Positions 7,822 to 51,409 of a DNA stretch of 64,000 bases are shown piece by piece. A program made the translations under genes and the position numbers. The stretch's first letter is position 1. Every line of letters starts with the position of its first letter. The notes beneath the pieces were generated by a model. It ran no database searches. It was not told where the DNA came from and saw only the letters and a list, made by a program, of their open reading frames with translations. This DNA is from Rhodothermales bacterium (GTDB lineage: Bacteria; Bacteroidota; Rhodothermia; Rhodothermales; Bin80): assembly GCA_965116685.1 (NCBI GenBank), contig OZ220707.1, positions 16,714-80,713 of the forward strand, given 5' to 3'.

Positions 7822-7854
7822 AGCTTTGCTTCACTGGTCTATCTTTGATCAGGT

Positions 7855-34102: not shown

Positions 34103-34218
34103 GGAGAACCGGGGTTGATTTAAAAATCAGGACTGGACTGCTCAACCGCTTCGGGCTGATATGATCACTCGGACGAGCATTGGCGTGTAAGACTTGCAGA
34201 GATTATCGTTACTCCGAG

Positions 34219-35274: not shown

Positions 35275-35318
35275 GTGCTGAGAACGATCACGATGCAAGT
35301 CAGCACCGGAGCCGGATA

Positions 35319-35798
35319 TTACTGTGATTGTGCGTTGATCATCTCCACAACCGTGCCCAGAAGATCATTGGGTACAGGCACAGTTAGATGGTATTGAACG
35401 ATTCTCCATGTATCGCCTTCTAAAACTAGCGCTCCAGTTCCGCGAACCTCACCGTACTTCTCGTTGAGCAGAACCTCATCAAACCATGCGGCCCCACCGT
35501 CGGCACCTACATATACATAGCGTTCCTGCGGAACATACGTCCATCCACGCCCGGCACTGAAATGAGGTTCAGCATACCCTTGAAATTCAGATTTTGTCCA
35601 TCGTTCGGTCATATCGGTCCCCAGGAAAATACTTTCTTCCGCGAGGTGTCCAAAATATCGTTCGTAATCGGCCTCGGAGGCGGCGAGATGAAAATCATCA
35701 AGTACTGCTTCAATGTCAGAGTGCTGTGCGCTTGCGCTTGATACGGTAATCAAGCCAAAGAGAAGGAGAATGGGGAAAAGTCGAGTCATGGAAGTCAT
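35319..35798 (-). CDS. Secreted SnoaL/NTF2-like fold protein
   Basis: 159 aa with a signal peptide (LFPILLLFGLITVSSASA). Size and the W/Y pattern fit NTF2-like proteins. 4-nt overlap with the upstream GMC gene. Confidence 0.5.
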   Translation of the reverse strand: MTSMTRLFPILLLFGLITVSSASAQHSDIEAVLDDFHLAASEADYERYFGHLAEESIFLGTDMTERWTKSEFQGYAEPHFSAGRGWTYVPQERYVYVGADGGAAWFDEVLLNEKYGEVRGTGALVLEGDTWRIVQYHLTVPVPNDLLGTVVEMINAQSQ

Positions 35799-37261
35799 TT
35801 GATCATATGGTCGGCAACCCGAAGTGCCTGGGCTGCAATTGTAAGTGCTGGGTTCATGGCTCCAGAGGATGGAAAAAATGATGCATCGACAACCCGCAAG
35901 TTCGGAAGTTCATGCATTCGGCAATAGGGGTCCAATACGCTGTTCGCTGGGTCATTGCCCATTTTCAAGGTGCCGCACTGGTGCGAGTTGGTTTCAATTC
36001 CCATCTGTTGACTGAATGTGATTGGATATCCGGCTCGTTGTAACATGCGGCGTGCCCGCTTTAATAATTGCCGGTGGGCAGTTAGGTTATTTGGCTTCCA
36101 GTGAATTCGTATACGACCTTCGGATGTCAGTGAAACATGATTATTCGGGTCGGGCAGATCCTCGCTCATGACCCACCATTCGATACTTCGGTTTGCCAGA
36201 TATTTCAGTAGGGGCAGAGGCGCATTTGGTCGGGCGGACTTGAGCATGGATGCCTGCACTTTGCCAATCATCTGGAGATTCCCCATAGGCCAGGGCCACT
36301 CATCTGCCCCAAGGTACCAATCATTGATCGAAAGTGTTTTCTGAAAGGTTGTTGTATTGCGTTCCCATGGACGGATTGCCATCAATGCGCTGTTATTGTG
36401 CACCATGTAGTTGCGTCCAATCATACCGGAGGGATCTGGAATCCCATCAGATCTAAGAAGCAGTACTGCAGAATTCACCGCACCACAGCTGAGTACATAG
36501 GTGCTGGCTCGAATGGTTTTCAATTCACCTTTGTGGTCTAACTCTAATGAATCAACAGCGCCACTGCGTATCACAACTCGATGGACCTTTGCGTTTGTCC
36601 ATAGGGTGACATTTGGATGGTCAATAGCTGGGCGGACAGCACATACCTCAGCATCCGATTTTGCATGAACTCTACAGGGAAACCCATCACATGTGTGGCA
36701 GCGCAGGCATCGATTCCCCAGATCAATTCCGAGAGGTAAATGAAACGGATTCAGGCCCTGCTTCTGGAAGGAAGCCGCGAGGCGGGCGATTTGCGGCTCA
36801 TGCGGTACCACGTTGTGTGGATAGTCTTCCGAACGCGGGGATTCGGTAGGATCATCACCAGGATTTCCATGGACATGGTACAGCTTTTCAGCACGGCAGT
36901 AGTAGGCCTCCAGTTCATCATAAGTGACCGGCCAGCCGGGGCTCGTACCACTCTCATGTTCCAGTTCACTGAAATCTTCCTGCCGGAATCTGGGCAGAGC
37001 TGCTCCATAAACTTTCGAGTTGCCTCCGATACAATAATGCAGGCCAGGCTTGAAGGTCTGGCCATCTGCAGTCTCCCAGACTTCGTTTGCCTTGTAACGA
37101 TTCTCCCCAAAGACAGCTTTTGGGCTCCAATTCTCAGGCTCCTGGGGAAGAAAATCCCCACGCTCAATCAGCAGAATGCGTGCGCCGCTGTCACGCAGTC
37201 CCCAAGCCAGCGTACCTCCACCGATTCCAGTTCCGACAATGATAATATCAAAATCTGCCAT
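35795..37261 (-). CDS. GMC-family FAD-dependent oxidoreductase
   Basis: N-terminal FDIIIVGTGIGGGTLA dinucleotide fold and C-terminal NLRVVDASFFPSSGAMNPALTIAAQALR. Confidence 0.8.
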   Translation of the reverse strand: MADFDIIIVGTGIGGGTLAWGLRDSGARILLIERGDFLPQEPENWSPKAVFGENRYKANEVWETADGQTFKPGLHYCIGGNSKVYGAALPRFRQEDFSELEHESGTSPGWPVTYDELEAYYCRAEKLYHVHGNPGDDPTESPRSEDYPHNVVPHEPQIARLAASFQKQGLNPFHLPLGIDLGNRCLRCHTCDGFPCRVHAKSDAEVCAVRPAIDHPNVTLWTNAKVHRVVIRSGAVDSLELDHKGELKTIRASTYVLSCGAVNSAVLLLRSDGIPDPSGMIGRNYMVHNNSALMAIRPWERNTTTFQKTLSINDWYLGADEWPWPMGNLQMIGKVQASMLKSARPNAPLPLLKYLANRSIEWWVMSEDLPDPNNHVSLTSEGRIRIHWKPNNLTAHRQLLKRARRMLQRAGYPITFSQQMGIETNSHQCGTLKMGNDPANSVLDPYCRMHELPNLRVVDASFFPSSGAMNPALTIAAQALRVADHMIK

Positions 37262-37305
37262 AGCTTGATCCCCCGTGAATTATCTCCCACTGGTAAACAA
37301 ATATA

Positions 37306-38121
37306 TCATGCCTTGACTGCTCCAGAAACTAGCCCCCGTACAAAGAGCCTGCCCAGGCCAATATAAACAAGGGCAGTAGGCAGGGCAGCTACGATTGCAC
37401 CTGCCATAACAACGTTCCAATCCACAGAAAAAGATCCAGATAGATTGTTCAGTGCAATCGTTACCGGTTGAGACTGGGGGTTTGGGACGACTGTGATTCC
37501 AAAAAGAAAGTCATTCCAAATGTTGGTGAACTGGAATATTAGTGCAACAGCAAACGCGGGCAAAGACAGGGGGAGGATGACGCGCCAGAAAACCCCAATG
37601 ATGCCAGCTCCGTCAACGGTTGCTGCTTCCACGATAGAGCCGGGAATATTGATATAAAAATTCCTGAAAATGAGTGTCGTTACAGAAACTCCGTAAACGA
37701 CATGAGTGAGGACCAGCCCAGGAAGTGTGCCATACAGGTCAATCCATTGGAGAAAACGTACCAGGGGAAGCAGGATGGCCTGATAGGGGATAAAGAAACC
37801 AAAAAGCAATAGAGCGAAAAGAATCTCGGATCCACGAAAGCGCCATTTCGAGAAAATGTAACCATTCAGTGCCCCAATGATCGACGATAAGAGGGCCGCG
37901 GGAATCACCATGACAAGACTATTCTTCAAGTTGGGAGAAAGCATGCTCCACGCCTCGATAAACCCTTCTGCGGAGATCCGGCTGGGAAGCTGCCACATCG
38001 TTGCCAGGCTGACACTGGATGCATCCCTAAAACTGTTGACGAGCATCACATAAATCGGCAGCAGGTACAGAATCACGGCAAGCCCCAACCCAAACCAGAG
38101 AAGTCCGCGTTTAAAACTCAT
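37306..38121 (-). CDS. Carbohydrate (CUT1) ABC transporter permease, MalG-like
   Basis: Six TM segments and an EAA-type loop (EAATVDGAGIIGVFWRVILPLSLP). Confidence 0.85.
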   Translation of the reverse strand: MSFKRGLLWFGLGLAVILYLLPIYVMLVNSFRDASSVSLATMWQLPSRISAEGFIEAWSMLSPNLKNSLVMVIPAALLSSIIGALNGYIFSKWRFRGSEILFALLLFGFFIPYQAILLPLVRFLQWIDLYGTLPGLVLTHVVYGVSVTTLIFRNFYINIPGSIVEAATVDGAGIIGVFWRVILPLSLPAFAVALIFQFTNIWNDFLFGITVVPNPQSQPVTIALNNLSGSFSVDWNVVMAGAIVAALPTALVYIGLGRLFVRGLVSGAVKA

Positions 38122-39110
38122 GATTCACGGTTTTTGAATGTATGGACGAGATAAGGGACAATGATCAAAGAAGATGCAACCAACATCACGATCGAAGCAG
38201 CAGCTCCAAGGTTATAACGGGCCGCTTTGAACATCATTTCAAACACGAAAATTGCCGGGACATCGGTAGCGAAGCCCGGTCCAACCCCCGACATGGCAAA
38301 AACCAGGTCAAAAATCTTCAGTGAAACGTGCAGCAGAATAATAATGATGGAGATTGTGATGGGATTCAGCATGGGAATGATCACGGACCGGTATAGCCTC
38401 AACTCTCCTGCACCATCAATACGGGCAGCATCTCTGATTTGAGGGCTGATGCCACCAAGTCCCCCGAGATACATAGCCATGACAAATCCGGATAACTGCC
38501 AGGTCGCGGCAATGGCTACCGGGATAAGTGCCACCGGAATTCCCCATTCAATCTGAAAATCCATGCCCCCCGGCCAAATTTGCGACAGCAGTTGATTGAC
38601 CGAAAAAACAACTGCAGGGTCCGTTGTCCAGCCAGGAGCCAGAGGACTCATGCCAGCCGCTTCCAGAGCCTGGTTGATTCCAAGAAAGTCGAAGAACAGG
38701 TTGATCCCAGTCTCAGGGTTGAAAATCCATCGCCACACAACCCCGGTTACGATAAAGGACAGAGCATAGGGGAATAGAAACGTATTACGAAAGAACCCCT
38801 TTCCGGCAATTTGGCGGTCCAGTAGAATTGCGAGCCCAAGGCCAATGCTGATTGCCAGACCAATAAAAAGCACCGTGAATACAAGTGTATTCCTTAGATC
38901 CGCCTGGAAGCGTGGCATCGCCAACATATCTGCATACGTTTGCCAAAGCGGGTCACGCAGAGACAAATCTACCGCAAGAGTACGCCAGTTTGTGAGCGAG
39001 AAAAAGAAGCTTGTTCCGATAAACCCATAGACAAAGATGGCCGTCAATAGAAGTGATGGCAGCAGGATGAGAAGTCCTTTATGTCGGGACAGCCAGCGTG
39101 TATGGATCAT
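38118..39110 (-). CDS. Carbohydrate (CUT1) ABC transporter permease, MalF-like
   Basis: TM-rich with an EAA loop (DAARIDGAGELRLYRSVIIPML). 4-nt overlap with the downstream permease. Confidence 0.85.
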   Translation of the reverse strand: MIHTRWLSRHKGLLILLPSLLLTAIFVYGFIGTSFFFSLTNWRTLAVDLSLRDPLWQTYADMLAMPRFQADLRNTLVFTVLFIGLAISIGLGLAILLDRQIAGKGFFRNTFLFPYALSFIVTGVVWRWIFNPETGINLFFDFLGINQALEAAGMSPLAPGWTTDPAVVFSVNQLLSQIWPGGMDFQIEWGIPVALIPVAIAATWQLSGFVMAMYLGGLGGISPQIRDAARIDGAGELRLYRSVIIPMLNPITISIIIILLHVSLKIFDLVFAMSGVGPGFATDVPAIFVFEMMFKAARYNLGAAASIVMLVASSLIIVPYLVHTFKNRES

Positions 39111-39113
39111 ACG

Positions 39114-40373
39114 TTACATGCCAAACCCGGATGCCTTTGCTTCCCGCGCAAGCATTTCAGTGAAGGCATCCACATCGCGTCGAACAACAAAGTCTGTCAG
39201 CGCATCGTTGAGTGCCTGCTGGAAATCCGCCGGTGCGGCGGAACCGTGGATCACCGTTGGCACAGCAACACTCTTGGCGTACTCATCCATTGCCCACTGC
39301 AGGTACGGGCCGAAGCGGGAACGGTCGCAGTCATTGCGTGCGCAAATGGATCCCTTGATGAGATTAAAGTTCTCCTGAACGACACGATCTCCCATGATCT
39401 GGAGCATATTGAGGGTTTCTTCCGGGTGAGGTGCATTTTTGGCGAGAGTGAATCCATCGGTAACCAGTATATGAACCCCGTCTGTCCCAGGATGGGCAAC
39501 CCAGCCAAAGTCAATGTTTTCCTTCAGCCCATCACGGATTAACTCCCCATAGACCCAGTCTCCCATCGAATAGAAGGCACAGTCGCCATCTGCCATTTTA
39601 TCGGCTGCCTGATCCCATGAGAGTGCGGCATGATCGTCATTCAGATAATTGAGTAGTCGACCATAGATGTGCACGGCCTCCATCACATCGGGGTCTCTAA
39701 AACTGGTCGTCCCGTTCCACAGGCCTTGATAGCGTTCAGGTCCAATCGTGCCAGCAAGCGTATTTTCAAACATAATGCCGGTGGCCCAGATCCCCGTATC
39801 TCCCATGCATAGAGGAGCAATCTCCGTATTCTGGAGCTCTTCGGCAATCCCGAACAGTTCCTCAATACTTAATGCATCCCCAACAGAGATGCCGTGCTCT
39901 GCAAGTACAGGCTTATTGTACCAGAGTGTATTGCTGCGATGAAGATTCAAGACGACCAGATAGGGCTCACCATTTCTGCTTACCATATCAATTAGAGATG
40001 GCGAGAACAGTTCATACCATCCTTCGGCATCATAGAGGTCCTTCATCGATGCAGCAAACCCGGGAGTGATATATTGTCCCATGAGTTCTGCTCCATGGTG
40101 GGTTTGCCATGTATCGGGTGGATTTCCTCCTACAAGTCGGGTTTGAAGCACAGGGCGGGCAGCTGAACCACCGCCACCGGCGATGGAAGCATTGATCACC
40201 TCAACATCGGGATAACGGTTTTTGTAGGCTTCGAGTACGGTTTCCAGTGCAGATGCTTCGCTTCCCGAGGTCCACCAGGTAAAGACCTCAACCTGTTTCT
40301 CGGGACTGGTCTGGTTGTTGCCCTGACAGGCAGCCAGAAGTAGGGTCGAAAGAAGTAGGTAATTGATACGCAT
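39114..40373 (-). CDS. ABC transporter extracellular solute-binding protein (family 1, sugar type), lipoprotein
   Basis: Lipobox LLLAAC, then VEVFTWWTSGSEA typical of CUT1 binding proteins. The internal Met at 40373 is preferred over 40394. Confidence 0.8.
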   Translation of the reverse strand: MRINYLLLSTLLLAACQGNNQTSPEKQVEVFTWWTSGSEASALETVLEAYKNRYPDVEVINASIAGGGGSAARPVLQTRLVGGNPPDTWQTHHGAELMGQYITPGFAASMKDLYDAEGWYELFSPSLIDMVSRNGEPYLVVLNLHRSNTLWYNKPVLAEHGISVGDALSIEELFGIAEELQNTEIAPLCMGDTGIWATGIMFENTLAGTIGPERYQGLWNGTTSFRDPDVMEAVHIYGRLLNYLNDDHAALSWDQAADKMADGDCAFYSMGDWVYGELIRDGLKENIDFGWVAHPGTDGVHILVTDGFTLAKNAPHPEETLNMLQIMGDRVVQENFNLIKGSICARNDCDRSRFGPYLQWAMDEYAKSVAVPTVIHGSAAPADFQQALNDALTDFVVRRDVDAFTEMLAREAKASGFGM

Positions 40374-40384
40374 AGTGTAAAGTG

Positions 40385-41839
40385 TTACAGCCACGAGCTC
40401 TCATGCTCGCCGATGTGAAGCTGAACGGTTTTGAGTTCGGTAAACTCATCTGTAGAGAAGCGGCCCAGTTCCCGTCCGAGCCCACTATCTCGATAACCAC
40501 CAAAGGGAAGCTCAGCGTGCCCCTCCATGAAACAATTGATCCAAATCGTCCCCGCACGAACGTTACGACTCACTTCAAAGGCGGTATCCACGTTTGAAGT
40601 CCACAGGCCGGCGCTCAGTCCATAGAGAGTGTTGTTGGCAATCTGGATTGCCTCCTCTTTTGTCTTGAATGTCAGGATCGACAGTACTGGGCCGAAGATC
40701 TCTTCCCGTGCAATCGGCATCTCAGGTGTCACACCATCGAATATAGTAGGTTCAAAAAACCGTCCATTTAGAGTTGGCATCCTGTTTCCGCCGATCCGAA
40801 GCCGCGCACCAAAATCGGTACCAATCTGCACATATTGATGAATTTTTTCAAGTTGTGGTTCATTGATGATTGCTCCGACTTTCACATCTTCGGCCAGCGG
40901 ATCTCCAACAGGCACTGTGCGTGCCAGCTCAAGGACACGTTCGGTAAACTCTTCTGCTATGCTTTCCTGCAGCAGGAGGCGGCTGCCGCTGTTGCAGCAT
41001 TCTCCCATGTTAAAGTAAACCCCGAATACAACGGGATCCAGTGCCGCCTCTAAATCCGCATCTGCAAAGATGATATGGGGGTTCTTTCCACCCAGTTCCA
41101 GTGAGCAGCGTTTGAGGTTTTTTCCAGCGGCGGCAGCGACTTTACGCCCAACTGCAGTTGAGCCAGTGAATGAGATTACATCAACATCATTGTGTTCGGC
41201 AAGGCTTGCGCCAACTGGATCCCCAAACCCGGTGACAATATTAATCACCCCAGAAGGAACGCCGGCTTCATGCGCTAACGAAGCCAGTTTCATGGTTGTG
41301 CCCGGAGTCAATTCACTGGGTTTGATGACCGCCGTACAGCCAACTGCAAGCGCAAACGGCAACTTCTGGCTGATGATCAGTAGCGGAAAATTCCATGGTG
41401 TGATCAGTCCCGCGACCCCGGCAGGCTCACGTAACACCAACCCGAGCTTGTTTTCACCAAGGTTATTGTACGCTTCTCCTACGGTATGGCGAGCGAGTGT
41501 CGCTGCATAGCGCCACAGATCCACGGCCGTCTCCATTTCCCCCTTTGCCTGTGTGATTGGCTTTCCACTTTCGAGGGTTTCCAGTTTGGCCAGATCCTCA
41601 CAGTGGGAATGAATCAGGTCTGCCGTGGCATTCAGAACCTGTGCACGCTCCTGGCCGGACATGCGTGGCCAGGGACCGGAATCAAATGCTGCGCGTGCAG
41701 ACTGCACAGCCGTGTGCACATCCTGCTCCGTTCCAAGTGCATAGTCATCCACCGTCGTATCATGCGCGGGGCTGACTGTGGTAAATAGGTCTCCCCGTTC
41801 ACCACGAACAAATTTGCCGCCAATCCAATGTTTGCCCAT
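40385..41839 (-). CDS. NAD(P)-dependent aldehyde dehydrogenase (BetB-like)
   Basis: ITPWNFPLLI, VIKPSELTPGT, SLELGGKNP, GECCNSGSRLLL (catalytic Cys) and EEIFGPVL. Confidence 0.88.
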   Translation of the reverse strand: MGKHWIGGKFVRGERGDLFTTVSPAHDTTVDDYALGTEQDVHTAVQSARAAFDSGPWPRMSGQERAQVLNATADLIHSHCEDLAKLETLESGKPITQAKGEMETAVDLWRYAATLARHTVGEAYNNLGENKLGLVLREPAGVAGLITPWNFPLLIISQKLPFALAVGCTAVIKPSELTPGTTMKLASLAHEAGVPSGVINIVTGFGDPVGASLAEHNDVDVISFTGSTAVGRKVAAAAGKNLKRCSLELGGKNPHIIFADADLEAALDPVVFGVYFNMGECCNSGSRLLLQESIAEEFTERVLELARTVPVGDPLAEDVKVGAIINEPQLEKIHQYVQIGTDFGARLRIGGNRMPTLNGRFFEPTIFDGVTPEMPIAREEIFGPVLSILTFKTKEEAIQIANNTLYGLSAGLWTSNVDTAFEVSRNVRAGTIWINCFMEGHAELPFGGYRDSGLGRELGRFSTDEFTELKTVQLHIGEHESSWL

Positions 41840-43434
41840 CAGGTTTCTCCTTTGATCATCGCTGCTCCTTTTTCACCGATCATGATAGAAGTAGCTTGTG
41901 TATTACCGCTAATTAAGCGAGGCATGATGGATGCATCAATCACACGCAGGGACTCAATCCCGTGAACAGAAAGTTGCAAATCTACAACAGCCTGCTCATC
42001 CGTTCCCATTTTACAGGATCCTACAGGGTGGTAATCATTTTTTGACCACTTTCGAATGTAGGTTTTGATGTCTTCATCACTTTGCGCTTCCGGGCCCGGT
42101 AGTATTTCCCGGGAGATATATTGTTGAAAAGAGGGGGCAGACAGGATGCGTCTTCCCCATTTGAATCCTTCCATTGATACCTTGAGATCATAGGGGTCAT
42201 CAAGAAAATTTGGATCAATGGCAGGGTCTTCCAATGGATCATTGCTGCGTAGCGTGAGAGATCCAACACTGCGTGGGCGCAGATTACAGGTATTGATCGT
42301 AAGACCGTGCCCTTTAATGGACATACGGCCATGATCGACTACATATGCAGGCAGGCAATGAATTTGGATGTCTGGAGAGCGAACCTCAGGAGAGCTCTTC
42401 AGGAAGCATCCGGCTTCGCATACCGATGCCGTGACCGGCCCCGTTTTATATAACAAATACTGGATGCCGTGCAAAATTGCACGGTTCCATTGGTCATGTC
42501 CGTTGTAGCTGACCGGCTCGTTGGATTCTGCTGCCAGGTACACATCCATATGGTCCTGGAAATTTTTTCCCACTCCCGGCAGATCATGCTCGACTTGAAT
42601 TCCAAGGGGTTTCAATTCATCTGCCGGCCCAATTCCGGAGAGCAATAGAAGCTTTGGAGAGTTTACCGCCCCTCCACTCAGGATGACCTCCCGTTCAGCA
42701 TGGACGCGGACTTTGGCTTTGTTTTTGGCATACTCAATTCCGATTGCCCGTCCATTCTCAAGAAGGATGCATGTTGCCACTGCACGGGTCAGGATCGTAA
42801 GATTGGTTTTTTGAGGCCGCAGGAATGCAGTGGCTGCACTTTCTCTGCGTACATTGCGCTGCGTCACCTGGTAATAGCTTACCCCCGACTGGCGGGCACC
42901 ATTCAAGTCGGGGTTATAACGGATTCCCATTTCCTGTGCTGATCGCACAAATGCGCGGGATAATGGGTTCGACTGTACCTGATCCGCCACATTGAGTGGG
43001 CCGCCACGCCCATGATATTCGTCGACAAACCGCTCGTTGTTTTCGGATTTTTTGAAATAGGGAAGGACATCATCATATCCCCATCCCTGGCAGCCCAGGT
43101 CACGCCATTCTTCATAATCCAGGCGGTGTCCTCGAATATAGATCATCGCGTTAATGGATGTGCTTCCACCGAGCGTCCGTCCTTGTGGATAGTGCATCTC
43201 ACGATGATTCAGGTGTTTTTGAGGGACGGTTTTGAAGCACCAATTCACATTTTTCCCCGTCAACTTGGCAAAGCCCGCCGGCATATGAATCAGGGGAGAC
43301 TTGTCTGGAGGGCCTGCTTCAAGCAATAATACCCGAATATTCGGATCTTCAGCAAGACGGTGAGCGATAACACATCCAGCTGCTCCCGCCCCCACGATTA
43401 CATAATCAAATGACTCGGTCAAGGTCTTCATCAA
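41839..43434 (-). CDS. GMC oxidoreductase, choline-dehydrogenase (BetA)-like
   Basis: FDYVIVGAGAAGCVIAHRL, GRTLGGSTSINAMIY, HPVGSCKMG, LRVIDASIMPRLISGNTQATSIMIGEK. Confidence 0.85.
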   Translation of the reverse strand: MMKTLTESFDYVIVGAGAAGCVIAHRLAEDPNIRVLLLEAGPPDKSPLIHMPAGFAKLTGKNVNWCFKTVPQKHLNHREMHYPQGRTLGGSTSINAMIYIRGHRLDYEEWRDLGCQGWGYDDVLPYFKKSENNERFVDEYHGRGGPLNVADQVQSNPLSRAFVRSAQEMGIRYNPDLNGARQSGVSYYQVTQRNVRRESAATAFLRPQKTNLTILTRAVATCILLENGRAIGIEYAKNKAKVRVHAEREVILSGGAVNSPKLLLLSGIGPADELKPLGIQVEHDLPGVGKNFQDHMDVYLAAESNEPVSYNGHDQWNRAILHGIQYLLYKTGPVTASVCEAGCFLKSSPEVRSPDIQIHCLPAYVVDHGRMSIKGHGLTINTCNLRPRSVGSLTLRSNDPLEDPAIDPNFLDDPYDLKVSMEGFKWGRRILSAPSFQQYISREILPGPEAQSDEDIKTYIRKWSKNDYHPVGSCKMGTDEQAVVDLQLSVHGIESLRVIDASIMPRLISGNTQATSIMIGEKGAAMIKGET

Positions 43435-44189
43435 TCCCCTTTATACTCTGGATCTCTTCGCTCCAAGAAGCTATTCACGCCTTCCTGTCCATCGTTTGTA
43501 TATGCACTGAGGGAGCCAGCGATGGATTCAAGAGGAGCACAATCCCCATCCAGCATCTGTTTTGCGATTTGTACAGCGACAGGAGCATTCTTGGCAACCG
43601 CCCCGGCCAACTCGTCGCACGCAGAGGAGAGCTTATCTAATGGACATATCTCGGTTACCAGCCCCCAGGCTAATGCTGTTTGTGCGTCAATGGGGCTGCC
43701 TGTCAGGACCATTGCCTTGGCCCGGGCAATGCCGATGATTTTGGATAACCGCGCGGTACCGCCCCATCCGGGGACCGTCGCAATTTTCACTTCCGGCATT
43801 GCAAAGGAGGCATTGCTTGCGGCAATACGGATATCACATGCCAGAGCGAGTTCGAGTCCTCCACCGAATGCGTAGCCATTGAGGAGGGCAATCACCGGTG
43901 GTCGCAGATTTGCCAGCCGTTGCAGAATACGTTGCCCCCTCGGAATCCACTGGTTCCACATTCCAAGTGCATTTAACGCTGCCCACGCTTTGATATCCGC
44001 CCCGGCACAGAAAGCTTTTTCTCCTGTACCTGTGAGAATGACTACGCGAAGGTCGTTGTTTGACTCAAGGGTTGCAAGATGAGTATCAAGTGTTTCCAGC
44101 ATCGAAGGATCAATCGCATTGCGTTTTTCCGGGCGATTGAGAGTCAATGTTGCTAGGTGCCCTGTAATTTCAAGTTCAACGTGACTCAT
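43431..44189 (-). CDS. Enoyl-CoA hydratase/isomerase (crotonase) family protein
   Basis: LTLNRPEKRNA, FCAGADIKAW, ALLNGYAFGGGLELALACDIRIA. Confidence 0.85.
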   Translation of the reverse strand: MSHVELEITGHLATLTLNRPEKRNAIDPSMLETLDTHLATLESNNDLRVVILTGTGEKAFCAGADIKAWAALNALGMWNQWIPRGQRILQRLANLRPPVIALLNGYAFGGGLELALACDIRIAASNASFAMPEVKIATVPGWGGTARLSKIIGIARAKAMVLTGSPIDAQTALAWGLVTEICPLDKLSSACDELAGAVAKNAPVAVQIAKQMLDGDCAPLESIAGSLSAYTNDGQEGVNSFLERRDPEYKGD

Positions 44190-45769
44190 TTTTTGGAGGG
44201 TAGTTGAAGGTTCATTGATCCGGGGTCGAAGAGCCGCTTATCCATGACTTGCAAGGACGAACTCACTTGAAGGTTCAAACTGGTTTGTCCAAGCACATCG
44301 CGTTCCAGGTTAATTCCAGGTGCAATTTCAATGACAGTTAACCCCTCAGGCAATAGCTGCAGTACGCACCGCTCCGTAATATAGGTGATCTTCTGTCCTA
44401 AACGGAGGGCACGGCTCCCACTAAAGGAAACGTGTTCCACTTCAGGTACGAGCTTTTGTACTTTGCCTTCTTGAAGAATCTTTACCTGACCTTCTTCAAT
44501 TGCAAGCCGAAGTCCGCCAGTTGTATAAGTCCCAATAAATACAAGATGACGCGCATTGGCGGTGATATCAATGAATCCTCCCACACCTGCTGTGACATGT
44601 GGGCGAGCGGCTAGGCGTGAGACATTGACACATCCATGCTGATCAATTTGCATAAAGGACAAAAAGCTGCGATCAAATCCTCCACCCTGGAAATACGTGA
44701 ACTGATCGGGCGATCCAAGAATCGCCTGAGCACCGGATGCACAGCCAAACTGAAAATCCAGAAGTGGCATCCCTCCAACAGCCCCTTGTTCAATCACCCA
44801 GGTCACAGCATCCGACAGCCCTTCCTCTAGAAGAATACGGGGAACTTGTGCAGATACGCCAAACCCCAGATTAACCGCATCTTTTTGGCATAACTCCATG
44901 GCCGCGCGGCGGGCCATGGGTTTATAGGGCCCCCAGGGCATGAGGTCATAAATTTTTCCATCGGGGGAGAGTTCTCCACTGATGGTCGGATCATATTCTG
45001 TATTCGTGGTCTGCATCTGATCTGGCGCAGTGACCACATAGTCAACTACAACTCCGGGTACCCGGACATCCTGGGGTTTGAGTTCGCCTGATTTCACGAC
45101 ACGTTTGACCTGCGCGATGACAATTCCGCCATTATTATGGGCAGCCAGCGCCTGATCATAAATGCCTAAGCTGCTTCCCTCGTGTTCAGTAGTGATGTTG
45201 CCATGCTCATCGGCGGTGGTTCCACGGATCAGTGCGACATCAACGGGGATTGAGGGATAGAACAGCCACTCATCTCCCTCAAACGTAACCCTCTTCACGA
45301 CCTCTGGAGGGCTACAGTCATTCATGCATCCACCTAGAAGGCGAGGATCCACAAAGGTATCCATGCCAACCTTTGTCAGGACTCCGGGTCTGTGCGCCGC
45401 CGCTTCACGGTGCATGTGATACAAGACTCCACTGGGCAGGTTATAAGCTTCCACGCGGTTTTCACCGATCATCTGCCAGATTTTGGGGGAGGGCATGGAT
45501 GAGGGGCCACTTGGTAGAGAGCCGGCAATGACACGTTTGAGGAGCCCATCATGGGCGAGGTGATCAATCCCGGCAATGCCATACATATCTCCGGCAGCGA
45601 TCGGGTGCAGCGTTGTCAGTCTTCTTGGATGCCCTGAATGAGCAAAGCGTTGACCAATTGCGGCCAGCGTTGCATCTGGACAGCCCAGGCCGCTTGATGC
45701 GCTGACTGTCAGGACTGCATCATCATGAATTTGTTCGGCAGCAGCGGCCAATGAACAGAACTCAGGCAT
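44186..45769 (-). CDS. Family I CoA-transferase, fused alpha/beta (acyl-CoA:acetate/3-ketoacid type, YdiF-like)
   Basis: 527 aa with GGIVIAQVKR and TAGVGGFIDIT motifs. Length fits fused-subunit enzymes. Confidence 0.75.
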   Translation of the reverse strand: MPEFCSLAAAAEQIHDDAVLTVSASSGLGCPDATLAAIGQRFAHSGHPRRLTTLHPIAAGDMYGIAGIDHLAHDGLLKRVIAGSLPSGPSSMPSPKIWQMIGENRVEAYNLPSGVLYHMHREAAAHRPGVLTKVGMDTFVDPRLLGGCMNDCSPPEVVKRVTFEGDEWLFYPSIPVDVALIRGTTADEHGNITTEHEGSSLGIYDQALAAHNNGGIVIAQVKRVVKSGELKPQDVRVPGVVVDYVVTAPDQMQTTNTEYDPTISGELSPDGKIYDLMPWGPYKPMARRAAMELCQKDAVNLGFGVSAQVPRILLEEGLSDAVTWVIEQGAVGGMPLLDFQFGCASGAQAILGSPDQFTYFQGGGFDRSFLSFMQIDQHGCVNVSRLAARPHVTAGVGGFIDITANARHLVFIGTYTTGGLRLAIEEGQVKILQEGKVQKLVPEVEHVSFSGSRALRLGQKITYITERCVLQLLPEGLTVIEIAPGINLERDVLGQTSLNLQVSSSLQVMDKRLFDPGSMNLQLPSKK

Positions 45770-46766
45770 AGCTTAGCGTAACTTGTTTGCCTGTCTGTGC
45801 CGATTGTTGAACTGCCAGTGCAACTGCAAGCGAGCGAAGCCCATCTTCAGCGGTAGCCGCTGGCTCGCCAACTCCCTGAACTGCACGATTAAAACATTCG
45901 ACCGCCCGCTCGTACAGGTTTACAGGAGGCGGGAGCTCGACTTTTTCCACTTGATTCCCTCTACGGAGGGAGATTCTCCCGATGGGTTGCTGGGTCATGA
46001 CATCCTTGGCAATCAGGGACGCATCGGTGCCATGGACTTCTAGCCCTGTTCCGGCGTGACCAATCACAAATGAATCATGAAATTGTGCAAGGATGCCACG
46101 CTCAAAACGCATCACACCCATCACTGTATCATCAATTCCATGTTTTCCAAGGCCTTGGGAAGAGGTACAAGCCATGACGGATTCCACTTCATCGTTCAGG
46201 ATGAATCGAAGTGTGTCCGTATCATGGACAGTGATATCCAAAACCACCCCGGCCCCGGTTGAGGGGTCCTTGATTCGCCACGTTTGCAGATGTGGGGGTA
46301 GGAGGACGGCATGAAACACCCGAACTGCCAGGGGATCTCCGATCACGCCATCCTGAATAAGTTTGCGGAGTGTGCGGTGAGTAACTGCATTCCGGAGATG
46401 GTGATTGGTCCCCATGACGAGGCCAGCTTTTGAGCAGGCATGTACCATTTGCTTTGCATCTGCGAGTGAGAGTGCAAGAGGCTTTTCGCAAAGGACATGT
46501 TTTTGGGCAGCAGCAGCAGCAAGGGTTTGTGGCTTATGCAATTCATTCGTGGTGCTGACGTAGACAACATCAATGTCTGGATTTGCAAGAAATGCATCAA
46601 GCTCCGTATAGATGTGCTGAATTCCAAACTGATCTTGGAAACTTTCTCCCCGCTGTTGAGATCGGCTCAGAATCGCCGTTACCTGGCTGTTGGGGCTTGC
46701 GTTAATGGCATTGATCATCCATTCCTTTGCAATCGTACTTGCGCCTATAATTCCCCAGTTAATCAT
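45762..46766 (-). CDS. Gfo/Idh/MocA oxidoreductase, 1,5-anhydro-D-fructose reductase-like
   Basis: WGIIGASTIAKEW, VYVSTTNELH, KHVLCEKPLA, GTNHHLRN, RVFHAVLLPPHLQTWR and VLDITVHDTDTLRF parallel the Sinorhizobium AFR sequence as I recall it. Needs a real alignment. Confidence 0.7.
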   Translation of the reverse strand: MINWGIIGASTIAKEWMINAINASPNSQVTAILSRSQQRGESFQDQFGIQHIYTELDAFLANPDIDVVYVSTTNELHKPQTLAAAAAQKHVLCEKPLALSLADAKQMVHACSKAGLVMGTNHHLRNAVTHRTLRKLIQDGVIGDPLAVRVFHAVLLPPHLQTWRIKDPSTGAGVVLDITVHDTDTLRFILNDEVESVMACTSSQGLGKHGIDDTVMGVMRFERGILAQFHDSFVIGHAGTGLEVHGTDASLIAKDVMTQQPIGRISLRRGNQVEKVELPPPVNLYERAVECFNRAVQGVGEPAATAEDGLRSLAVALAVQQSAQTGKQVTLSYA

Positions 46767-46910
46767 AATTCTGAATCGGATCGTCTATGAACGTAAGCAA
46801 ATTTAACTAGTCCGTTGGAATTAACCTACTTGGGTATTTGGTCTGGTCAGGTGTATCCAAATGCCTAATCTACTTCAAGTAATGTGTCCGTCTAGAAGAT
46901 TCCACAGGGT

Positions 46911-49765: not shown

Positions 49766-49817
49766 ACGGATAAAATAATCAAGGGGGACCTCGGCAGAGA
49801 TCCCCCCTCCTTTTGTT

Positions 49818-51399: not shown

Positions 51400-51409
51400 G
51401 GAAATAGGC

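What the first reader, a model, noticed from the sequence alone, without database searches (positions are those of the whole stretch)
35319..46766. Tightly coupled 10-gene operon joining sugar-type ABC import to CoA-transferase/crotonase chemistry (candidate undescribed catabolic route)
Ten minus-strand genes are packed with start/stop overlaps at 45762-45769, 44186-44189, 43431-43434, 41839, 38118-38121 and 35795-35798.

Gene order:
- a Gfo/Idh/MocA enzyme that looks like 1,5-anhydro-D-fructose reductase (memory-based);
- a fused family-I CoA-transferase;
- a crotonase;
- a BetA-like GMC alcohol oxidase and a BetB-like ALDH;
- a CUT1 binding lipoprotein and two permeases, with no ATPase gene;
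- a second GMC flavoprotein;
- a signal-peptide NTF2/SnoaL-like protein.

The implied sequence is import of a neutral sugar, polyol or anhydro-sugar, then alcohol to aldehyde to acid oxidation, then CoA activation and hydration or elimination. I do not recognise this as a textbook sugar pathway. Etf genes 4 kb away could serve as the electron sink.
Basis: partly seen in the sequence, partly recalled or inferred. Interest (0 to 1): 0.6.

Follow-up and report, generated by a model that had tools for sequence, protein, structure and literature searches.

The report
Conserved anhydro-sugar operon using CoA chemistry
This ten-gene operon in a Rhodothermales bacterium is the counterpart of the Sinorhizobium gene cluster that holds the known 1,5-anhydro-fructose reductase; the cluster recurs in at least six bacterial lineages, its other genes have never been assigned, and it probably encodes the missing oxygen-tolerant route for breaking down 1,5-anhydro sugars through a coenzyme-A-bound sugar acid.

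Summary
Ten intact, co-directional minus-strand genes lie at 35319-46766, with the reported start/stop overlaps, and every domain call was verified.

The first gene is about 57% identical to the crystallised 1,5-anhydro-D-fructose reductase (AFR) and keeps its cofactor and catalytic motifs.

The key new result concerns Sinorhizobium meliloti. There the characterised afr gene sits in the same cluster: LacI-AFR-CoA-transferase-crotonase-ALDH-CUT1 ABC-GMC-SDR-GMC-glycerate kinase.

AFR-CoA-transferase-crotonase occurs in 33 of 57 genome loci with enough flank, and the near-full set in 19. These span Rhodothermales, Verrucomicrobiota, Chloroflexota, Alpha- and Betaproteobacteria. Variants add a true GH88 unsaturated-glucuronyl hydrolase or a DUF993 protein.

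I found no paper that assigns the non-AFR genes. A 2025 review calls the step after AFR "still unidentified".

Best model (inferred, confidence about 0.4):
- uptake of a 1,5-anhydro-hexose or -hexitol;
- AFR, with GMC2 where present, funnels it to anhydromannitol;
- GMC1 and ALDH make the 6-carboxylate;
- CoA-transferase plus crotonase remove the 4-OH;
- the vinyl ether is hydrated and the ring opens to a 2-keto-3-deoxy-hexonate.

Eight genes are core. GMC2 and the SnoaL-like gene are accessory. Interest is moderate to high.

The parts
45762..46766 (-). AFR-like Gfo/Idh/MocA NADP(H) oxidoreductase (334 aa), first gene of the operon
   Evidence: Pfam GFO_IDH_MocA N and C domains. It scores 397 bits (E 4e-118) to S. 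morelense AFR 2GLX and 385 bits to S. meliloti AFR 4KOA, full length, about 57% identity. Motifs GASTIA (8-13), EKP (K95) and DITVH (D177, H181) are conserved. It is syntenic with the S. meliloti afr gene.
44186..45769 (-). Fused (alpha+beta) family I CoA-transferase, YdiF type (527 aa)
   Evidence: Pfam CoA_trans. It scores 366 bits to E. coli YdiF 2AHU over residues 8-525. Homologues are 60-98% identical across phyla, and E327-Q-G is invariant.
43431..44189 (-). Crotonase-fold enoyl-CoA hydratase/dehydratase (252 aa)
   Evidence: Pfam ECH_1, 201 bits. It falls below every NCBIfam equivalog cut-off. Both canonical catalytic glutamates are present, E113 in GGGLE and E133 in MPE, 20 residues apart. 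It follows the CoA-transferase in 67 of 84 loci.
41839..43434 (-). GMC1: choline-dehydrogenase-like FAD alcohol dehydrogenase/oxidase (531 aa)
   Evidence: Pfam GMC_oxred_N and C domains. NCBIfam choline dehydrogenase subfamily NF002550 scores 624 bits, above its 605 cut-off. It scores 406 bits to PDB 9LQ0. It is 49% identical to S. meliloti SMc04390.
40385..41839 (-). NAD(P)-dependent aldehyde dehydrogenase (484 aa)
   Evidence: Pfam Aldedh, 569 bits. ELGGK (248) and GECC (279) are present. It is not the CoA-acylating MMSDH type: 271 bits against a 448.5 cut-off. It is 54% identical to the S. meliloti cluster ALDH.
39114..40394 (-). CUT1 solute-binding lipoprotein (426 aa)
   Evidence: Pfam SBP_bac_1. 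A lipobox LLLAAC lies near the N-terminus. It scores 285 bits to the Thermus thermophilus glucose/galactose-binding protein 2B3B and 151 bits to a sugar ABC binding component 5DVF.
38118..39110 (-). ABC permease 1 (GlcT/UgpA-like, 330 aa)
   Evidence: Pfam BPD_transp_1 and NCBIfam GlcT-like.
37306..38121 (-). ABC permease 2 (GlcU/UgpE-like, 271 aa)
   Evidence: Pfam BPD_transp_1, and NCBIfam GlcU at 189 bits.
35795..37261 (-). GMC2: flavoprotein sugar dehydrogenase with a Cys-rich motif like the Fe-S-type GMC enzymes (488 aa); accessory gene
   Evidence: Pfam GMC N and C domains. Best PDB matches are the Burkholderia FAD-glucose dehydrogenase catalytic subunit 6A2U_B and the fructose dehydrogenase large subunit 7W2J. 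It carries C185xxCxxCxxxxC. It is 43% identical to S. meliloti SMc04392. It is absent from the closest relatives L004-L007.
35319..35798 (-). SnoaL_3/NTF2-like protein with an N-terminal signal peptide (159 aa); accessory, function unknown
   Evidence: Pfam SnoaL_3, 91 bits. There is no NCBIfam or PDB sequence match. Orthologues with conserved signal peptides occur only in L010-L012, always after GMC2.
46912..48000 (-). IS630-family transposase; the element spans about 46916-48073 and is inserted about 150 bp upstream of the operon
   Evidence: NCBIfam transpos_IS630, 269 bits. The relative L004 (94-96% nucleotide identity) has the empty CTAG site. About 20-bp terminal inverted repeats are present.
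50650..52363 (+). Electron transfer flavoprotein beta and alpha genes (50650-51399 and 51377-52363), possibly linked to the operon
   Evidence: Pfam ETF and ETF_alpha. These genes are immediately divergent from the AFR gene in L009, L010, L011, L014 and L020. ETF genes lie inside the paralogous pSymA and Paracoccus clusters.
34180..35274 (+). DeoC/LacD class I aldolase, convergent neighbour; its link to the operon is uncertain
   Evidence: NCBIfam class I fructose-bisphosphate aldolase NF006707, 449 bits against a 327 cut-off. A homologue holds the same position in L011 and L012.

Best explanation
The operon is the Rhodothermales orthologue of the Sinorhizobium afr locus. It most likely takes up and catabolises a 1,5-anhydro-hexose or -hexitol (1,5-anhydrofructose, -mannitol or -glucitol) without oxygen-sensitive radical chemistry.

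Shown:
- the enzyme families;
- orthology and synteny with the locus that contains the biochemically characterised AFR;
- conservation across phyla.

Inferred pathway:
1. A glucose-type CUT1 binding protein and two permeases import the neutral sugar. The ATPase is borrowed from elsewhere in the genome.
2. AFR reduces 1,5-anhydrofructose to 1,5-anhydromannitol. Where present, GMC2 oxidises anhydroglucitol to anhydrofructose and so widens the input.
3. GMC1 oxidises the C6 primary alcohol to the aldehyde, and the ALDH makes the 6-carboxylate (a 1,5-anhydro-uronate).
4. The YdiF-type CoA-transferase makes the thioester. This acidifies H-5.
5. The crotonase, which has both catalytic Glu, eliminates the beta (C4) hydroxyl to give a 4,5-unsaturated 5-alkoxy-enoyl-CoA.
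6. The CoA is passed to the next substrate molecule, so no thiolase or ligase is needed.
7. The vinyl ether is hydrated and the ring opens to a 2-keto-3-deoxy-hexonate. GH88 would do this in the Verrucomicrobial and Chloroflexal versions. The enzyme in Rhodothermales is unknown.
8. The 2-keto-3-deoxy-hexonate enters Entner-Doudoroff-type cleavage. In proteobacteria the cluster adds a DUF993 protein, annotated as DHDPS family, and a glycerate 2-kinase.

Electrons from the flavoproteins may go to the adjacent ETF.
For: - AFR identity and motifs.
- The S. meliloti gene in the syntenic cluster is 332/333 identical to crystallised AFR 4KOA.
- Window proteins are 41-62% identical to the S. meliloti enzymes.
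- AFR-CoAT-ECH occurs in 33 of 57 loci, and the near-full set in 19 of 57 from Rhodothermales, Verrucomicrobiae, Alphaproteobacteria and Paraburkholderia. An unbiased neighbour clustering recovers only these families.
- The binding protein resembles a glucose/galactose-binding protein. One Rhodothermales variant (L002 and L017 are the same contig) uses an SSF (SGLT-family) symporter instead.
- The regulator is LacI-type in 45 loci.
- There is a single transferase and a single bona fide hydratase/dehydratase, with no thiolase, ligase or ACAD.
- A true GH88 unsaturated glucuronyl hydrolase (185 bits to 1VD5) lies inside 11 clusters, and it never occurs together with DUF993. From established knowledge, GH88 hydrates exactly this kind of C4=C5 vinyl ether next to a carboxylate.
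- DUF993, annotated as DHDPS family, and an MOFRL glycerate 2-kinase are in the S. meliloti cluster.
- The E. coli B2 variant has an organic-acid MHS transporter and lacks GMC and ALDH. This is expected if GMC and ALDH only serve to make the acid.
- The S. meliloti binding-protein gene is reported as induced by dextrin.
- The review PMC12441222 says Rhizobiaceae grow on anhydrofructose via AFR and that the next enzyme is unidentified.
Against: - No substrate, transcript or enzyme activity was measured for any gene here.
- The published proposal for Sinorhizobium is C-1 hydroxylation of anhydromannitol to mannose, which needs none of these genes.
- Rhodothermales clusters have neither GH88 nor DUF993, so the ring-opening step has no candidate in the window.
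- The ALDH could instead act downstream, for example on glyceraldehyde.
- AFR also reduces 2-keto-aldoses (my recollection of Kuhn et al. 2006), so anhydrofructose may not be its physiological substrate.
- CoA thioesters of uronic acids are not an established metabolite class.
- The Rhodothermales and S. meliloti binding proteins are only 25% identical.
Confidence: 0.4

Rival explanations
1. A CoA-dependent sugar-acid dehydratase route for a different sugar or polyol. An ordinary hexose, alditol or glycoside fragment is oxidised (GMC, Gfo/Idh/MocA, ALDH) to an aldonic or uronic acid. CoA-transferase plus crotonase then replace the usual enolase- or IlvD-type sugar-acid dehydratase and yield a 2-keto-3-deoxy acid. 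A DHDPS-like enzyme, the ALDH and glycerate kinase finish a non-phosphorylative Entner-Doudoroff-like path. One version starts from GH88-released 4-deoxy-5-hexosulose-uronate. On this reading the anhydrofructose activity of AFR is a side activity.
For: - The regulator is LacI-type, the binding protein is glucose-type, and GMC2 belongs to the sugar-dehydrogenase class.
- DUF993, annotated as DHDPS family, and glycerate 2-kinase are in proteobacterial clusters.
- GH88 normally acts on lyase-derived unsaturated uronides.
- A sulfatase follows CoAT-GMC1 in L003.
- The paralogous pSymA and Paracoccus cluster has the same module with a CUT2 sugar transporter.
Against: - AFR orthologues are co-conserved with the CoA module in 49 of 84 loci. 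AFR is reported to be inactive on common aldoses and ketoses (my recollection of Kuhn et al. 2006).
- A plain aldonate would need neither GH88 nor a primary-alcohol oxidase.
- The binding proteins look monosaccharide-sized, not fitted to unsaturated oligosaccharides.
Confidence: 0.25
2. The published Sinorhizobium model is complete. AFR makes anhydromannitol, and an unlinked P450-like hydroxylase (or GMC2 acting at C-1) converts it to mannose. The CoA-transferase, crotonase, GMC1 and ALDH genes merely share the operon and handle another compound.
For: The review summary of Kuhn et al. 2006. GMC2's nearest solved relative oxidises the anomeric carbon of glucose.
Against: - The hydroxylase has never been identified, and no P450 is in any of the 84 loci.
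- AFR-CoAT-ECH are adjacent in 33 of 57 loci across distant phyla, often with overlapping stop and start codons. That is hard to explain without a shared pathway.
Confidence: 0.15
3. A beta-oxidation-like breakdown of a deoxy-sugar acid, analogous to the proposed Klebsiella michiganensis deoxyribonate route. The acid is activated with CoA, hydrated or dehydrated and oxidised at C3, then cleaved to acetyl-CoA plus glyceryl-CoA. The transferase releases glycerate for glycerate kinase.
For: - Glycerate kinase follows the module in S. meliloti, pSymA and Paracoccus.
- SDR, ACAD and ETF accompany the module in proteobacterial variants.
- There is precedent in PMC6365646.
Against: [quoted passage not shown] The window cluster has no SDR or ACAD. 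This model does not explain AFR or GH88.
Confidence: 0.1
4. A C3 hydroxy-acid/acrylate module like Halomonas AcuN-AcuK plus DddA-DddC: acrylate goes to 3-hydroxypropionate, then malonate semialdehyde, then acetyl-CoA.
For: The same four activities (CoA-transferase, hydratase, alcohol dehydrogenase, aldehyde dehydrogenase) are co-transcribed as dddC-dddA-acuN-acuK.
Against: - The ALDH is not the CoA-acylating MMSDH type: 271 bits against a 448.5 cut-off.
- A sugar-type ABC or SSF transporter, a LacI regulator, AFR, GMC2 and GH88 are all co-conserved.
- No DMSP lyase or acuI is nearby.
Confidence: 0.05

Closest known systems
Sinorhizobium morelense / S. meliloti afr locus (AFR, SMc04400; PDB 2GLX, 4KOA)
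   Same: The first gene is a clear AFR orthologue. The following genes match in family and nearly in order: CoA-transferase, crotonase, ALDH, CUT1 ABC, GMC2 and GMC1.
   Different: In the literature I could search, only AFR has been characterised in Sinorhizobium. The S. meliloti cluster also has a LacI regulator, an ABC ATPase, an SDR, a glycerate kinase and a divergent DUF993 gene. The window version lacks all of these. It places GMC1 between the crotonase and the ALDH, and it adds a SnoaL-like gene.
Anaerobic 'anhydroglycolysis' (PTS plus glycyl-radical C-O lyases YbiW/PflD) of gut bacteria
   Same: If the model is right, the substrates are the same (1,5-anhydroglucitol and 1,5-anhydromannitol) and so is the task: opening the 1,5-ether ring.
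   Different: That route uses phosphorylated intermediates and oxygen-sensitive radical enzymes. This cluster has no PTS, kinase or glycyl-radical enzyme, and instead has flavoprotein, ALDH and CoA-thioester enzymes.
Halomonas AcuN-AcuK / DddA-DddC acrylate and 3-hydroxypropionate genes
   Same: A CoA-transferase and a crotonase work as a pair that recycles CoA, next to an alcohol dehydrogenase and an aldehyde dehydrogenase in one transcript.
   Different: That system has a C3 substrate, a BCCT transporter, LysR/TetR regulators and an MMSDH-type DddC. Here there are sugar transporters, LacI, AFR and a non-acylating ALDH. I could not check whether AcuN belongs to the same CoA-transferase family.
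Klebsiella michiganensis deoxyribonate pathway with acyl-CoA intermediates (proposed, PMC6365646)
   Same: It is a sugar-acid catabolic pathway that runs through CoA thioesters and ends, in proteobacterial versions, at glycerate kinase.
   Different: That route uses a CoA synthetase, a 3-hydroxyacyl-CoA dehydrogenase and a thiolase. None of these is present here.
Unsaturated-uronate route (GH88/GH105, then KduI/KduD, then KDG) and the non-phosphorylative Entner-Doudoroff pathway
   Same: Vinyl-ether hydration by GH88, and 2-keto-3-deoxy acid, aldolase, ALDH and glycerate 2-kinase logic, appear in variant clusters.
   Different: In the known route the double bond is made outside the cell by polysaccharide lyases. 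Here it would be made inside the cell on a CoA thioester. No KduI, KduD, KdgK or Eda is in the clusters.
E. coli YdiF (acetate/short-chain acyl-CoA transferase, PDB 2AHU)
   Same: The fused family I architecture is the same, and the alignment is full length at 366 bits.
   Different: YdiF lies with ACAD, ETF and fadK genes (my own knowledge). This subfamily is 60-70% identical across phyla and is tied to LacI regulators and crotonases.

Membership tests
1,5-anhydro-D-fructose reductase (AFR, Gfo/Idh/MocA family) | Two-domain Gfo/Idh/MocA fold with full-length similarity to characterised AFR | tested here: met
   Pfam N and C domains. It scores 397 and 385 bits to 2GLX and 4KOA over residues 1-330.
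1,5-anhydro-D-fructose reductase (AFR, Gfo/Idh/MocA family) | NADP(H) motif G-A-S-T-I-A and the catalytic Lys/Asp/His of AFR (K94, D176, H180 in 2GLX numbering, recalled from Dambe et al. 2006) | tested here: met
   G8ASTIA13, K95, D177 and H181 align with the identical residues of 2GLX and 4KOA.
1,5-anhydro-D-fructose reductase (AFR, Gfo/Idh/MocA family) | Same genomic context as the characterised gene | tested here: met
   The S. meliloti gene that is 332/333 identical to 4KOA heads the same cluster.
1,5-anhydro-D-fructose reductase (AFR, Gfo/Idh/MocA family) | Stereoselective reduction of 1,5-anhydrofructose to 1,5-anhydromannitol | not testable with these tools
   This needs an enzyme assay.
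Family I CoA-transferase, fused YdiF type | Alpha- and beta-like CoA_trans halves in one polypeptide | tested here: met
   NCBIfam subunit A model matches residues 6-248 and subunit B model matches 284-496. The YdiF alignment covers 8-525.
Family I CoA-transferase, fused YdiF type | Catalytic glutamate that forms the enzyme-CoA thioester | tested here: inconclusive
   E327-Q-G is invariant in 20 homologues and lies where YdiF's catalytic Glu is expected. I did not inspect a residue-level alignment to YdiF.
Crotonase-superfamily enoyl-CoA hydratase | ECH_1 fold with the two catalytic glutamates, spaced about 20 residues apart | tested here: met
   ECH_1 scores 201 bits. E113 (GGGLE) and E133 (MPE) are present.
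Crotonase-superfamily enoyl-CoA hydratase | Assignment to a named equivalog (for example PaaF, CaiD or short-chain ECH) | tested here: not met
   All 73 NCBIfam matches fall below their curated cut-offs. The best is 221 bits against a cut-off of 363.
GMC oxidoreductases (GMC1, choline-dehydrogenase subfamily) | GMC N and C domains, an FAD GxGxxG motif and a C-terminal His/Asn pair | tested here: met
   Pfam. NF002550 scores 624 bits, above its 605 cut-off, but the BetA equivalog scores 542, below 732. GAGAAG is at 15, YHPVGS at 468 and GNT at 510. It is therefore choline-dehydrogenase-like, not BetA itself.
Fe-S-containing GMC sugar dehydrogenases (FAD-GDH / fructose dehydrogenase class; GMC2) | GMC catalytic subunit with a Cys-rich cluster motif, a small Tat-signal subunit and a cytochrome c subunit | tested here: inconclusive
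   The best PDB hits are 6A2U_B and 7W2J, and a CxxCxxCxxxxC motif is present. However, there is no cytochrome or Gluconate_2-dh3 subunit gene in the window, and no signal peptide on GMC2. Verrucomicrobial homologues are fused to a Gluconate_2-dh3 domain that lacks a Tat signal.
CUT1 (carbohydrate uptake 1) ABC importer | SBP_bac_1 binding protein, two BPD_transp_1 permeases and a MalK-type ATPase | tested here: inconclusive
   The binding protein and both permeases are present. No ATPase gene is in the window. Proteobacterial clusters do carry a MalK-like ATPase. CUT1 systems are known to share an ATPase encoded elsewhere (my own knowledge).
AcuN-AcuK / DddA-DddC acrylate/3-hydroxypropionate system | CoA-acylating malonate/methylmalonate-semialdehyde dehydrogenase (DddC) | tested here: not met
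   The cluster ALDH scores 271 bits against the MMSDH cut-off of 448.5. A true MMSDH lies elsewhere in the window, at 23241-24743.
AcuN-AcuK / DddA-DddC acrylate/3-hydroxypropionate system | Link to DMSP or acrylate genes (dddD/dddY, dddT, acuI, LysR/TetR regulators) | tested here: not met
   None of these is among the conserved neighbour families.

The most novel reading that the evidence does not exclude
The cluster encodes a previously undescribed, oxygen-tolerant way to open the ether ring of 1,5-anhydro sugars. The sugar's C6 is oxidised to a carboxylate and activated as a CoA thioester. A crotonase dehydrates it to a vinyl ether, which is then hydrated to a 2-keto-3-deoxy-hexonate. This would be the first pathway to use uronyl-CoA intermediates. 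It would supply the 'still unidentified' step after AFR. It would also provide an aerobic enzyme set for removing 1,5-anhydroglucitol, which a 2025 review names as a prerequisite for a probiotic approach to GSD-Ib/G6PC3 neutropenia.
Probability: 0.3. Interest if true: 0.8.

Novelty: new variant of a known kind. Interest (0 to 1): 0.62.

Why it matters
1,5-Anhydroglucitol, -mannitol and -fructose are widespread. They occur in foods, plants, red algae and fungi, and in human blood.

The only fully described bacterial route for the anhydro-hexitols is strictly anaerobic and radical-based. For aerobes, the literature stops after the AFR step, with an enzyme that was never found.

This work shows that afr is the first gene of a cluster conserved from sponge- and coral-associated Rhodothermales to rhizobia, Verrucomicrobia and Chloroflexi. 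That gives a concrete set of candidate genes and a chemically explicit, testable pathway.

If the model is right, three things follow:
- It adds CoA-thioester activation of a sugar acid as a way to do beta-elimination inside the cell.
- It assigns functions to a very large, highly conserved CoA-transferase subfamily. At least 7,990 database proteins matched (a capped search), and a version is present in 827 of 5,426 complete E. coli genomes.
- It offers oxygen-tolerant enzymes for lowering 1,5-anhydroglucitol.

If the anhydro-sugar part is wrong, the cluster still marks an unassigned, widely distributed sugar-acid route.

Tried and rejected
- I first thought the IS630 element upstream had displaced a LacI regulator gene, because L002 and L003 have LacI there. 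This is rejected. The 94-96% identical relative L004 has the empty CTAG site and no LacI, and L001/L006 also lack it.
- AcuNK/DddAC identity is rejected on ALDH type and context.
- The sigma-70 promoter and intrinsic terminator scan of 34900-48300 gave no more sites than shuffles: 13 against 14.1, and 12 against 12.5. It is uninformative for this phylum.
- Literature searches turned up nothing that assigns the non-AFR genes. The terms covered AFR, anhydro-sugar catabolism, SMc04392-SMc04400, DUF993/PF06187 and enzyme combinations.
- The original Kuhn et al. 2006 paper could not be opened by PubMed id, DOI or PMC id. What I say about it rests on the review and on my memory.
- The SnoaL-like protein has no sequence match in the PDB or NCBIfam, so its role stays open.
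- The context of CoA-transferase-only loci in Caldilineaceae was uninformative: Fe-ADH, PAPS reductase and glycosyltransferases.
- I did not run structure prediction, fold search or the large representative search. They would not have discriminated between the substrate hypotheses.

Full report
**Observation.**
- The ORF list reproduces the ten minus-strand genes at the stated coordinates.
- The stated junction overlaps are 8, 4, 4, 1, 4 and 4 nt. A 10-nt overlap also exists at 40385-40394 if the GTG start of the binding protein is used.
- The only gaps are 3 nt and 44 nt.
- All ten ORFs are intact. The eight shared genes have nearly the same lengths as in a 91%-identical relative.
- A sigma-70 promoter and terminator scan found no more sites than shuffled sequence. 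It says nothing either way for this phylum.

**What the genes are.**

| Gene | Coordinates | Identity | Key evidence |
|---|---|---|---|
| 1 | 45762-46766 | Gfo/Idh/MocA enzyme, AFR-like | 397 and 385 bits, full length, to the two crystallised 1,5-anhydro-D-fructose reductases 2GLX and 4KOA; about 57% identity; keeps G8ASTIA13, K95, D177 and H181 |
| 2 | 44186-45769 | Fused family I CoA-transferase | 366 bits to E. coli YdiF |
| 3 | 43431-44189 | Crotonase | Both canonical glutamates, E113 and E133; no named equivalog |
| 4 | 41839-43434 | GMC1, choline-dehydrogenase-like flavoprotein | Passes the subfamily cut-off but not the BetA cut-off |
| 5 | 40385-41839 | Ordinary NAD(P) aldehyde dehydrogenase | Not the CoA-acylating MMSDH type |
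| 6-8 | 37306-40394 | CUT1 binding lipoprotein and two permeases | Binding protein scores 285 bits to the Thermus glucose/galactose-binding protein 2B3B |
| 9 | 35795-37261 | GMC2 | Nearest solved relatives are the catalytic subunits of Burkholderia FAD-glucose dehydrogenase and Gluconobacter fructose dehydrogenase; carries CxxCxxCxxxxC |
| 10 | 35319-35798 | SnoaL_3 protein with a signal peptide | No closer match anywhere |

No ABC ATPase gene is in the window.

**Origin and immediate surroundings.**
- The window comes from a Rhodothermales genome. The nearest public loci are metagenome-assembled Rhodothermales genomes at 97-98% protein identity for the CoA-transferase.
- Some more distant Rhodothermales relatives carry isolate names that suggest sponge or coral samples. 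That is only an inference from the names.
- Upstream of the operon lies an IS630 element, at about 46916-48073. The relative L004 has the empty CTAG site, so this is a recent insertion about 150 bp before the first start codon.
- L004 has no LacI gene there, so my first idea that the IS had displaced a regulator is wrong.
- Homology to L004-L006 stops exactly at the end of the second permease (window 37297-37299). GMC2 and the SnoaL-like gene are therefore absent from the closest relatives, yet they hold the same position in more distant Rhodothermales (L008-L012, L020).
- The core is thus eight genes, and GMC2 and SnoaL are accessory.
In the window they are separated from it by an NYN-domain gene and the IS.

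**Conservation.**
- A search of about 5.8 billion proteins showed the CoA-transferase belongs to a very conserved subfamily. All 120 listed hits are at least 66% identical, and 7,990 of the 8,000 scored candidates pass E <= 1e-20.
- A scan of one genome per species returned 80 loci.
- Mapping the ten window proteins onto them gave these counts for the 57 loci with enough flanking DNA:
  - 48 have the crotonase next to the transferase;
  - 33 have AFR-transferase-crotonase;
  - 28 have the crotonase, the CUT1 transporter and a GMC enzyme;
  - 19 have the near-complete set.
- The loci with the near-complete set are Rhodothermales, Verrucomicrobiae, Alphaproteobacteria (Mesorhizobium, Phyllobacterium, Labrys, Paramesorhizobium) and Paraburkholderia. 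Partial versions occur in Chloroflexota and Trueperaceae.
- An unbiased clustering of all ORFs in the loci, with antisense shadows removed, recovers only the following neighbour families:

| Family | Loci |
|---|---|
| CoA-transferase | 84 |
| Crotonase | 67 |
| AFR | 49 |
| LacI regulator | 45 |
| Binding protein | 41 |
| GMC2 | 40 |
| Permeases | 36 and 35 |
| ALDH | 35 |
| GMC1 | 29 |
| MalK-type ATPase | 29 |
| SDR | 25 |
| DUF993 | 21 |
| ETF | 12 |
| GH88 | 11 |
| Acyl-CoA dehydrogenase | 10 |

**The link to a characterised gene.**
- A protein search of the plasmid collection hit a 3.7-Mb Sinorhizobium meliloti record. It is deposited as pSymB but is evidently the chromosome, because it carries leuB and asd.
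- Its annotation reads as follows: DUF993 (called 'dihydrodipicolinate synthase family', divergent) | LacI - 1,5-anhydro-D-fructose reductase - CoA-transferase - enoyl-CoA hydratase - aldehyde dehydrogenase - ABC binding protein - two permeases - ATPase - GMC oxidoreductase - SDR - GMC oxidoreductase - glycerate kinase.
- The reductase gene is 332/333 identical to the crystallised S. meliloti AFR 4KOA.
- Window proteins are 55% (AFR), 62% (transferase), 41% (crotonase), 54% (ALDH), 49% (GMC1) and 43% (GMC2) identical to these. The transporter parts are more distant, at 25-48%.
- Two papers confirm my recollection of the S. meliloti 1021 locus tags:
  - SMc04396 is the binding protein, reported as induced by dextrin.
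  - SMc04390-04392 are the two GMC enzymes and the SDR.
- So the window operon is an orthologue of the afr locus.

**What is known about that locus.**
- I found nothing beyond AFR itself.
- A 2025 review (PMC12441222) summarises the state of knowledge:
  - Rhizobiaceae reduce 1,5-anhydrofructose to 1,5-anhydromannitol with AFR.
  - The next step is thought to be C-1 hydroxylation by a P450-like enzyme 'still unidentified', giving mannose.
  - No aerobic pathway for 1,5-anhydroglucitol has been described.
  - The only complete bacterial route is the anaerobic glycyl-radical 'anhydroglycolysis'.
- No P450 occurs in any of the 84 loci.

**Informative variants.**
1. Verrucomicrobial, Chloroflexal and Trueperaceae clusters carry a genuine GH88 unsaturated glucuronyl hydrolase (185 bits to 1VD5), in most cases just after the crotonase or ALDH. 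Most of them, though not Trueperaceae, also carry a cytoplasmic Gluconate_2-dh3-GMC fusion between the transferase and the crotonase.
2. Proteobacterial clusters carry DUF993 instead. GH88 and DUF993 never occur together.
3. One Rhodothermales variant replaces the ABC system by an SSF (SGLT-family) symporter.
4. S. meliloti pSymA and a Paracoccus plasmid hold a paralogous cluster: CUT2 sugar ABC - Zn-ADH - ALDH - GMC - CoA-transferase - crotonase - glycerate kinase - ACAD - SDR - DUF993 - TIM-barrel isomerase - ETF.
5. In 827 of 5,426 complete E. coli genomes, including strains ATCC 25922 and ABU 83972, a small island lies between dnaB and qorA. It reads LacI | CoA-transferase - crotonase - MHS organic-acid transporter - FAD-binding protein, without any GMC or ALDH.

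**Mechanistic reading.** Everything in this section is inferred.
- The constant pair is one CoA-transferase plus one true hydratase/dehydratase under a sugar-type repressor, without ligase, thiolase or (in most versions) acyl-CoA dehydrogenase.
- That is the signature of transient CoA activation to make an alpha-proton acidic, as in the AcuN/AcuK pair or CaiB/CaiD (my own knowledge).
- Where the transporter imports a neutral sugar, a primary-alcohol oxidase (GMC1) and an ALDH are present. Where it imports an acid (E. coli), they are absent. GMC1 and ALDH therefore most simply make the carboxylate.
- With AFR as guide, the substrate is a 1,5-anhydro-hexitol, and the steps would be:
  1. Oxidation at C6 gives a 1,5-anhydro-uronate.
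  2. In its CoA ester, the C4 hydroxyl is the beta-leaving group.
  3. Crotonase-type dehydration gives a C4=C5 vinyl ether next to the carboxyl. This is exactly the structure that GH88 enzymes hydrate.
  4. Because C1 carries no glycosidic oxygen, ring opening yields a 2-keto-3-deoxy-hexonate directly.
- The DUF993 protein (annotated as DHDPS family), the ALDH and the MOFRL glycerate 2-kinase of the proteobacterial clusters fit a non-phosphorylative Entner-Doudoroff ending.
- GMC2, a sugar secondary-alcohol dehydrogenase type, could feed anhydroglucitol into the AFR step.
- This model gives every core gene a role and explains the variants.
- Its weak points:
  - no candidate for the hydration step in Rhodothermales;
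  - the alternative published fate of anhydromannitol;
  - the lack of precedent for uronyl-CoA.
- I put the specific model at about 0.4. The general statement has my confidence of about 0.85: an orthologue of the afr cluster, acting on a sugar derivative oxidised to an acid and processed as a CoA thioester.

**Rivals.**

| Rival | Confidence |
|---|---|
| The same CoA-dependent dehydration applied to another sugar acid, including GH88-released hexosulose-uronate, with AFR's anhydrofructose activity incidental | 0.25 |
| The published mannose route is complete and the CoA genes are unrelated passengers | 0.15 |
| A beta-oxidation-like deoxy-sugar-acid route ending in glyceryl-CoA, as proposed for Klebsiella deoxyribonate | 0.10 |
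| An acrylate/3-hydroxypropionate module like AcuNK/DddAC, disfavoured by ALDH type and context | 0.05 |

**Novelty and verdict.**
- The window instance is a new member of a conserved cluster. The cluster itself is an unassigned pathway built from familiar enzyme families, so I rate it as a new variant of a known kind.
- It is worth following up for three reasons:
  - it gives concrete candidates for a step that has been open since 2006;
  - it points to an oxygen-tolerant anhydroglucitol route that a recent review explicitly asks for;
  - it would annotate a very large CoA-transferase subfamily.
- Interest: 0.62.

Noticed in passing
window 46916-48073 (transposase ORF 46912-48000, minus strand): A recent IS630-family insertion at a CTAG site about 150 bp upstream of the operon's first start codon, with about 20-bp terminal inverted repeats. 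The 94-96% identical relative L004 has the empty site. It may alter regulation of the operon.
   Followed up: yes
window 11549-29516: A dense patch of mobile and defence genes: a DruA-like/DDE transposase fusion (11549-13912), a ResIII helicase (14795-16792), IS110 (18140-19441), an N6/N4 DNA methylase (19730-21481), a SocA/Panacea antitoxin domain (22015-22599), a group II intron reverse transcriptase (26682-28175) and an ISNCY transposase (28239-29516).
   Followed up: partly
window 2079-3083, 23241-24743 and 34180-35274: Scattered inositol-type catabolic genes. An IolC-like 5-dehydro-2-deoxygluconokinase scores 383 bits against a cut-off of 300. A CoA-acylating (methyl)malonate-semialdehyde dehydrogenase scores 562 bits against 448.5. 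A DeoC/LacD class I aldolase is convergent with the operon, and a homologue holds the same position in L011 and L012. Whether any of them serves the operon is unknown.
   Followed up: partly
window 50650-52363; L009, L010, L011, L014 and L020 at about 6800-8950: ETF beta and alpha genes are immediately divergent from the AFR gene in five other Rhodothermales loci. In the window they are separated from it by an NYN-domain gene (48956-50074) and the IS630 element. ETF genes also lie inside the paralogous pSymA and Paracoccus clusters.
   Followed up: partly
L088 9001-16163 (E. coli ABU 83972; also ATCC 25922 and UPEC 26-1): 827 of 5,426 complete E. coli genomes match an island between dnaB and qorA, and 280 cover at least 80% of it. 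It reads LacI | CoA-transferase (61% identical to the window protein) - crotonase - MHS organic-acid transporter - FAD-binding protein, the last a pseudogene in ABU 83972. Its function appears to be undescribed.
   Followed up: partly
L086 1232-22555 (S. meliloti pSymA) and L087 (Paracoccus kondratievae plasmid): A paralogous, larger cluster: TetR | CUT2 sugar ABC - Zn-ADH - ALDH - GMC - AKR - CoA-transferase - crotonase - glycerate kinase - AKR - ACAD - SDR - DUF993 - TIM-barrel isomerase - ETF beta/alpha. It looks like a second CoA-dependent sugar or polyol route.
   Followed up: no
L084 (record CP090106.1): This 3.72-Mb S. meliloti record is deposited as 'plasmid pSymB' but carries chromosomal genes (leuB, asd, the afr locus). 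It appears to be the mislabelled chromosome.
   Followed up: no
L029 11573-13840 and homologues in L015, L016, L018, L019 and L024-L028: In Verrucomicrobia and Chloroflexi a 755-aa protein fuses a Gluconate_2-dh3 (small-subunit) domain to a GMC catalytic domain, with no Tat or Sec signal. This suggests a cytoplasmic version of enzymes that are normally periplasmic and membrane-bound.
   Followed up: partly
window 46798-46805 (minus strand): A TAAATTTG match to the Bacteroidetes-type -7 promoter box (TAnnTTTG, recalled from memory) lies 32-39 nt upstream of the AFR start codon, in the native DNA left between the IS and the operon. This is a consensus match only.
   Followed up: no
window 31058-34102 and 53825-57181: Two very large ORFs: a 1014-aa BNR/Sortilin-Vps10-repeat protein with a glycosylhydrolase F510_1955-like region, and an 1118-aa protein with no Pfam match at all.
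   Followed up: no
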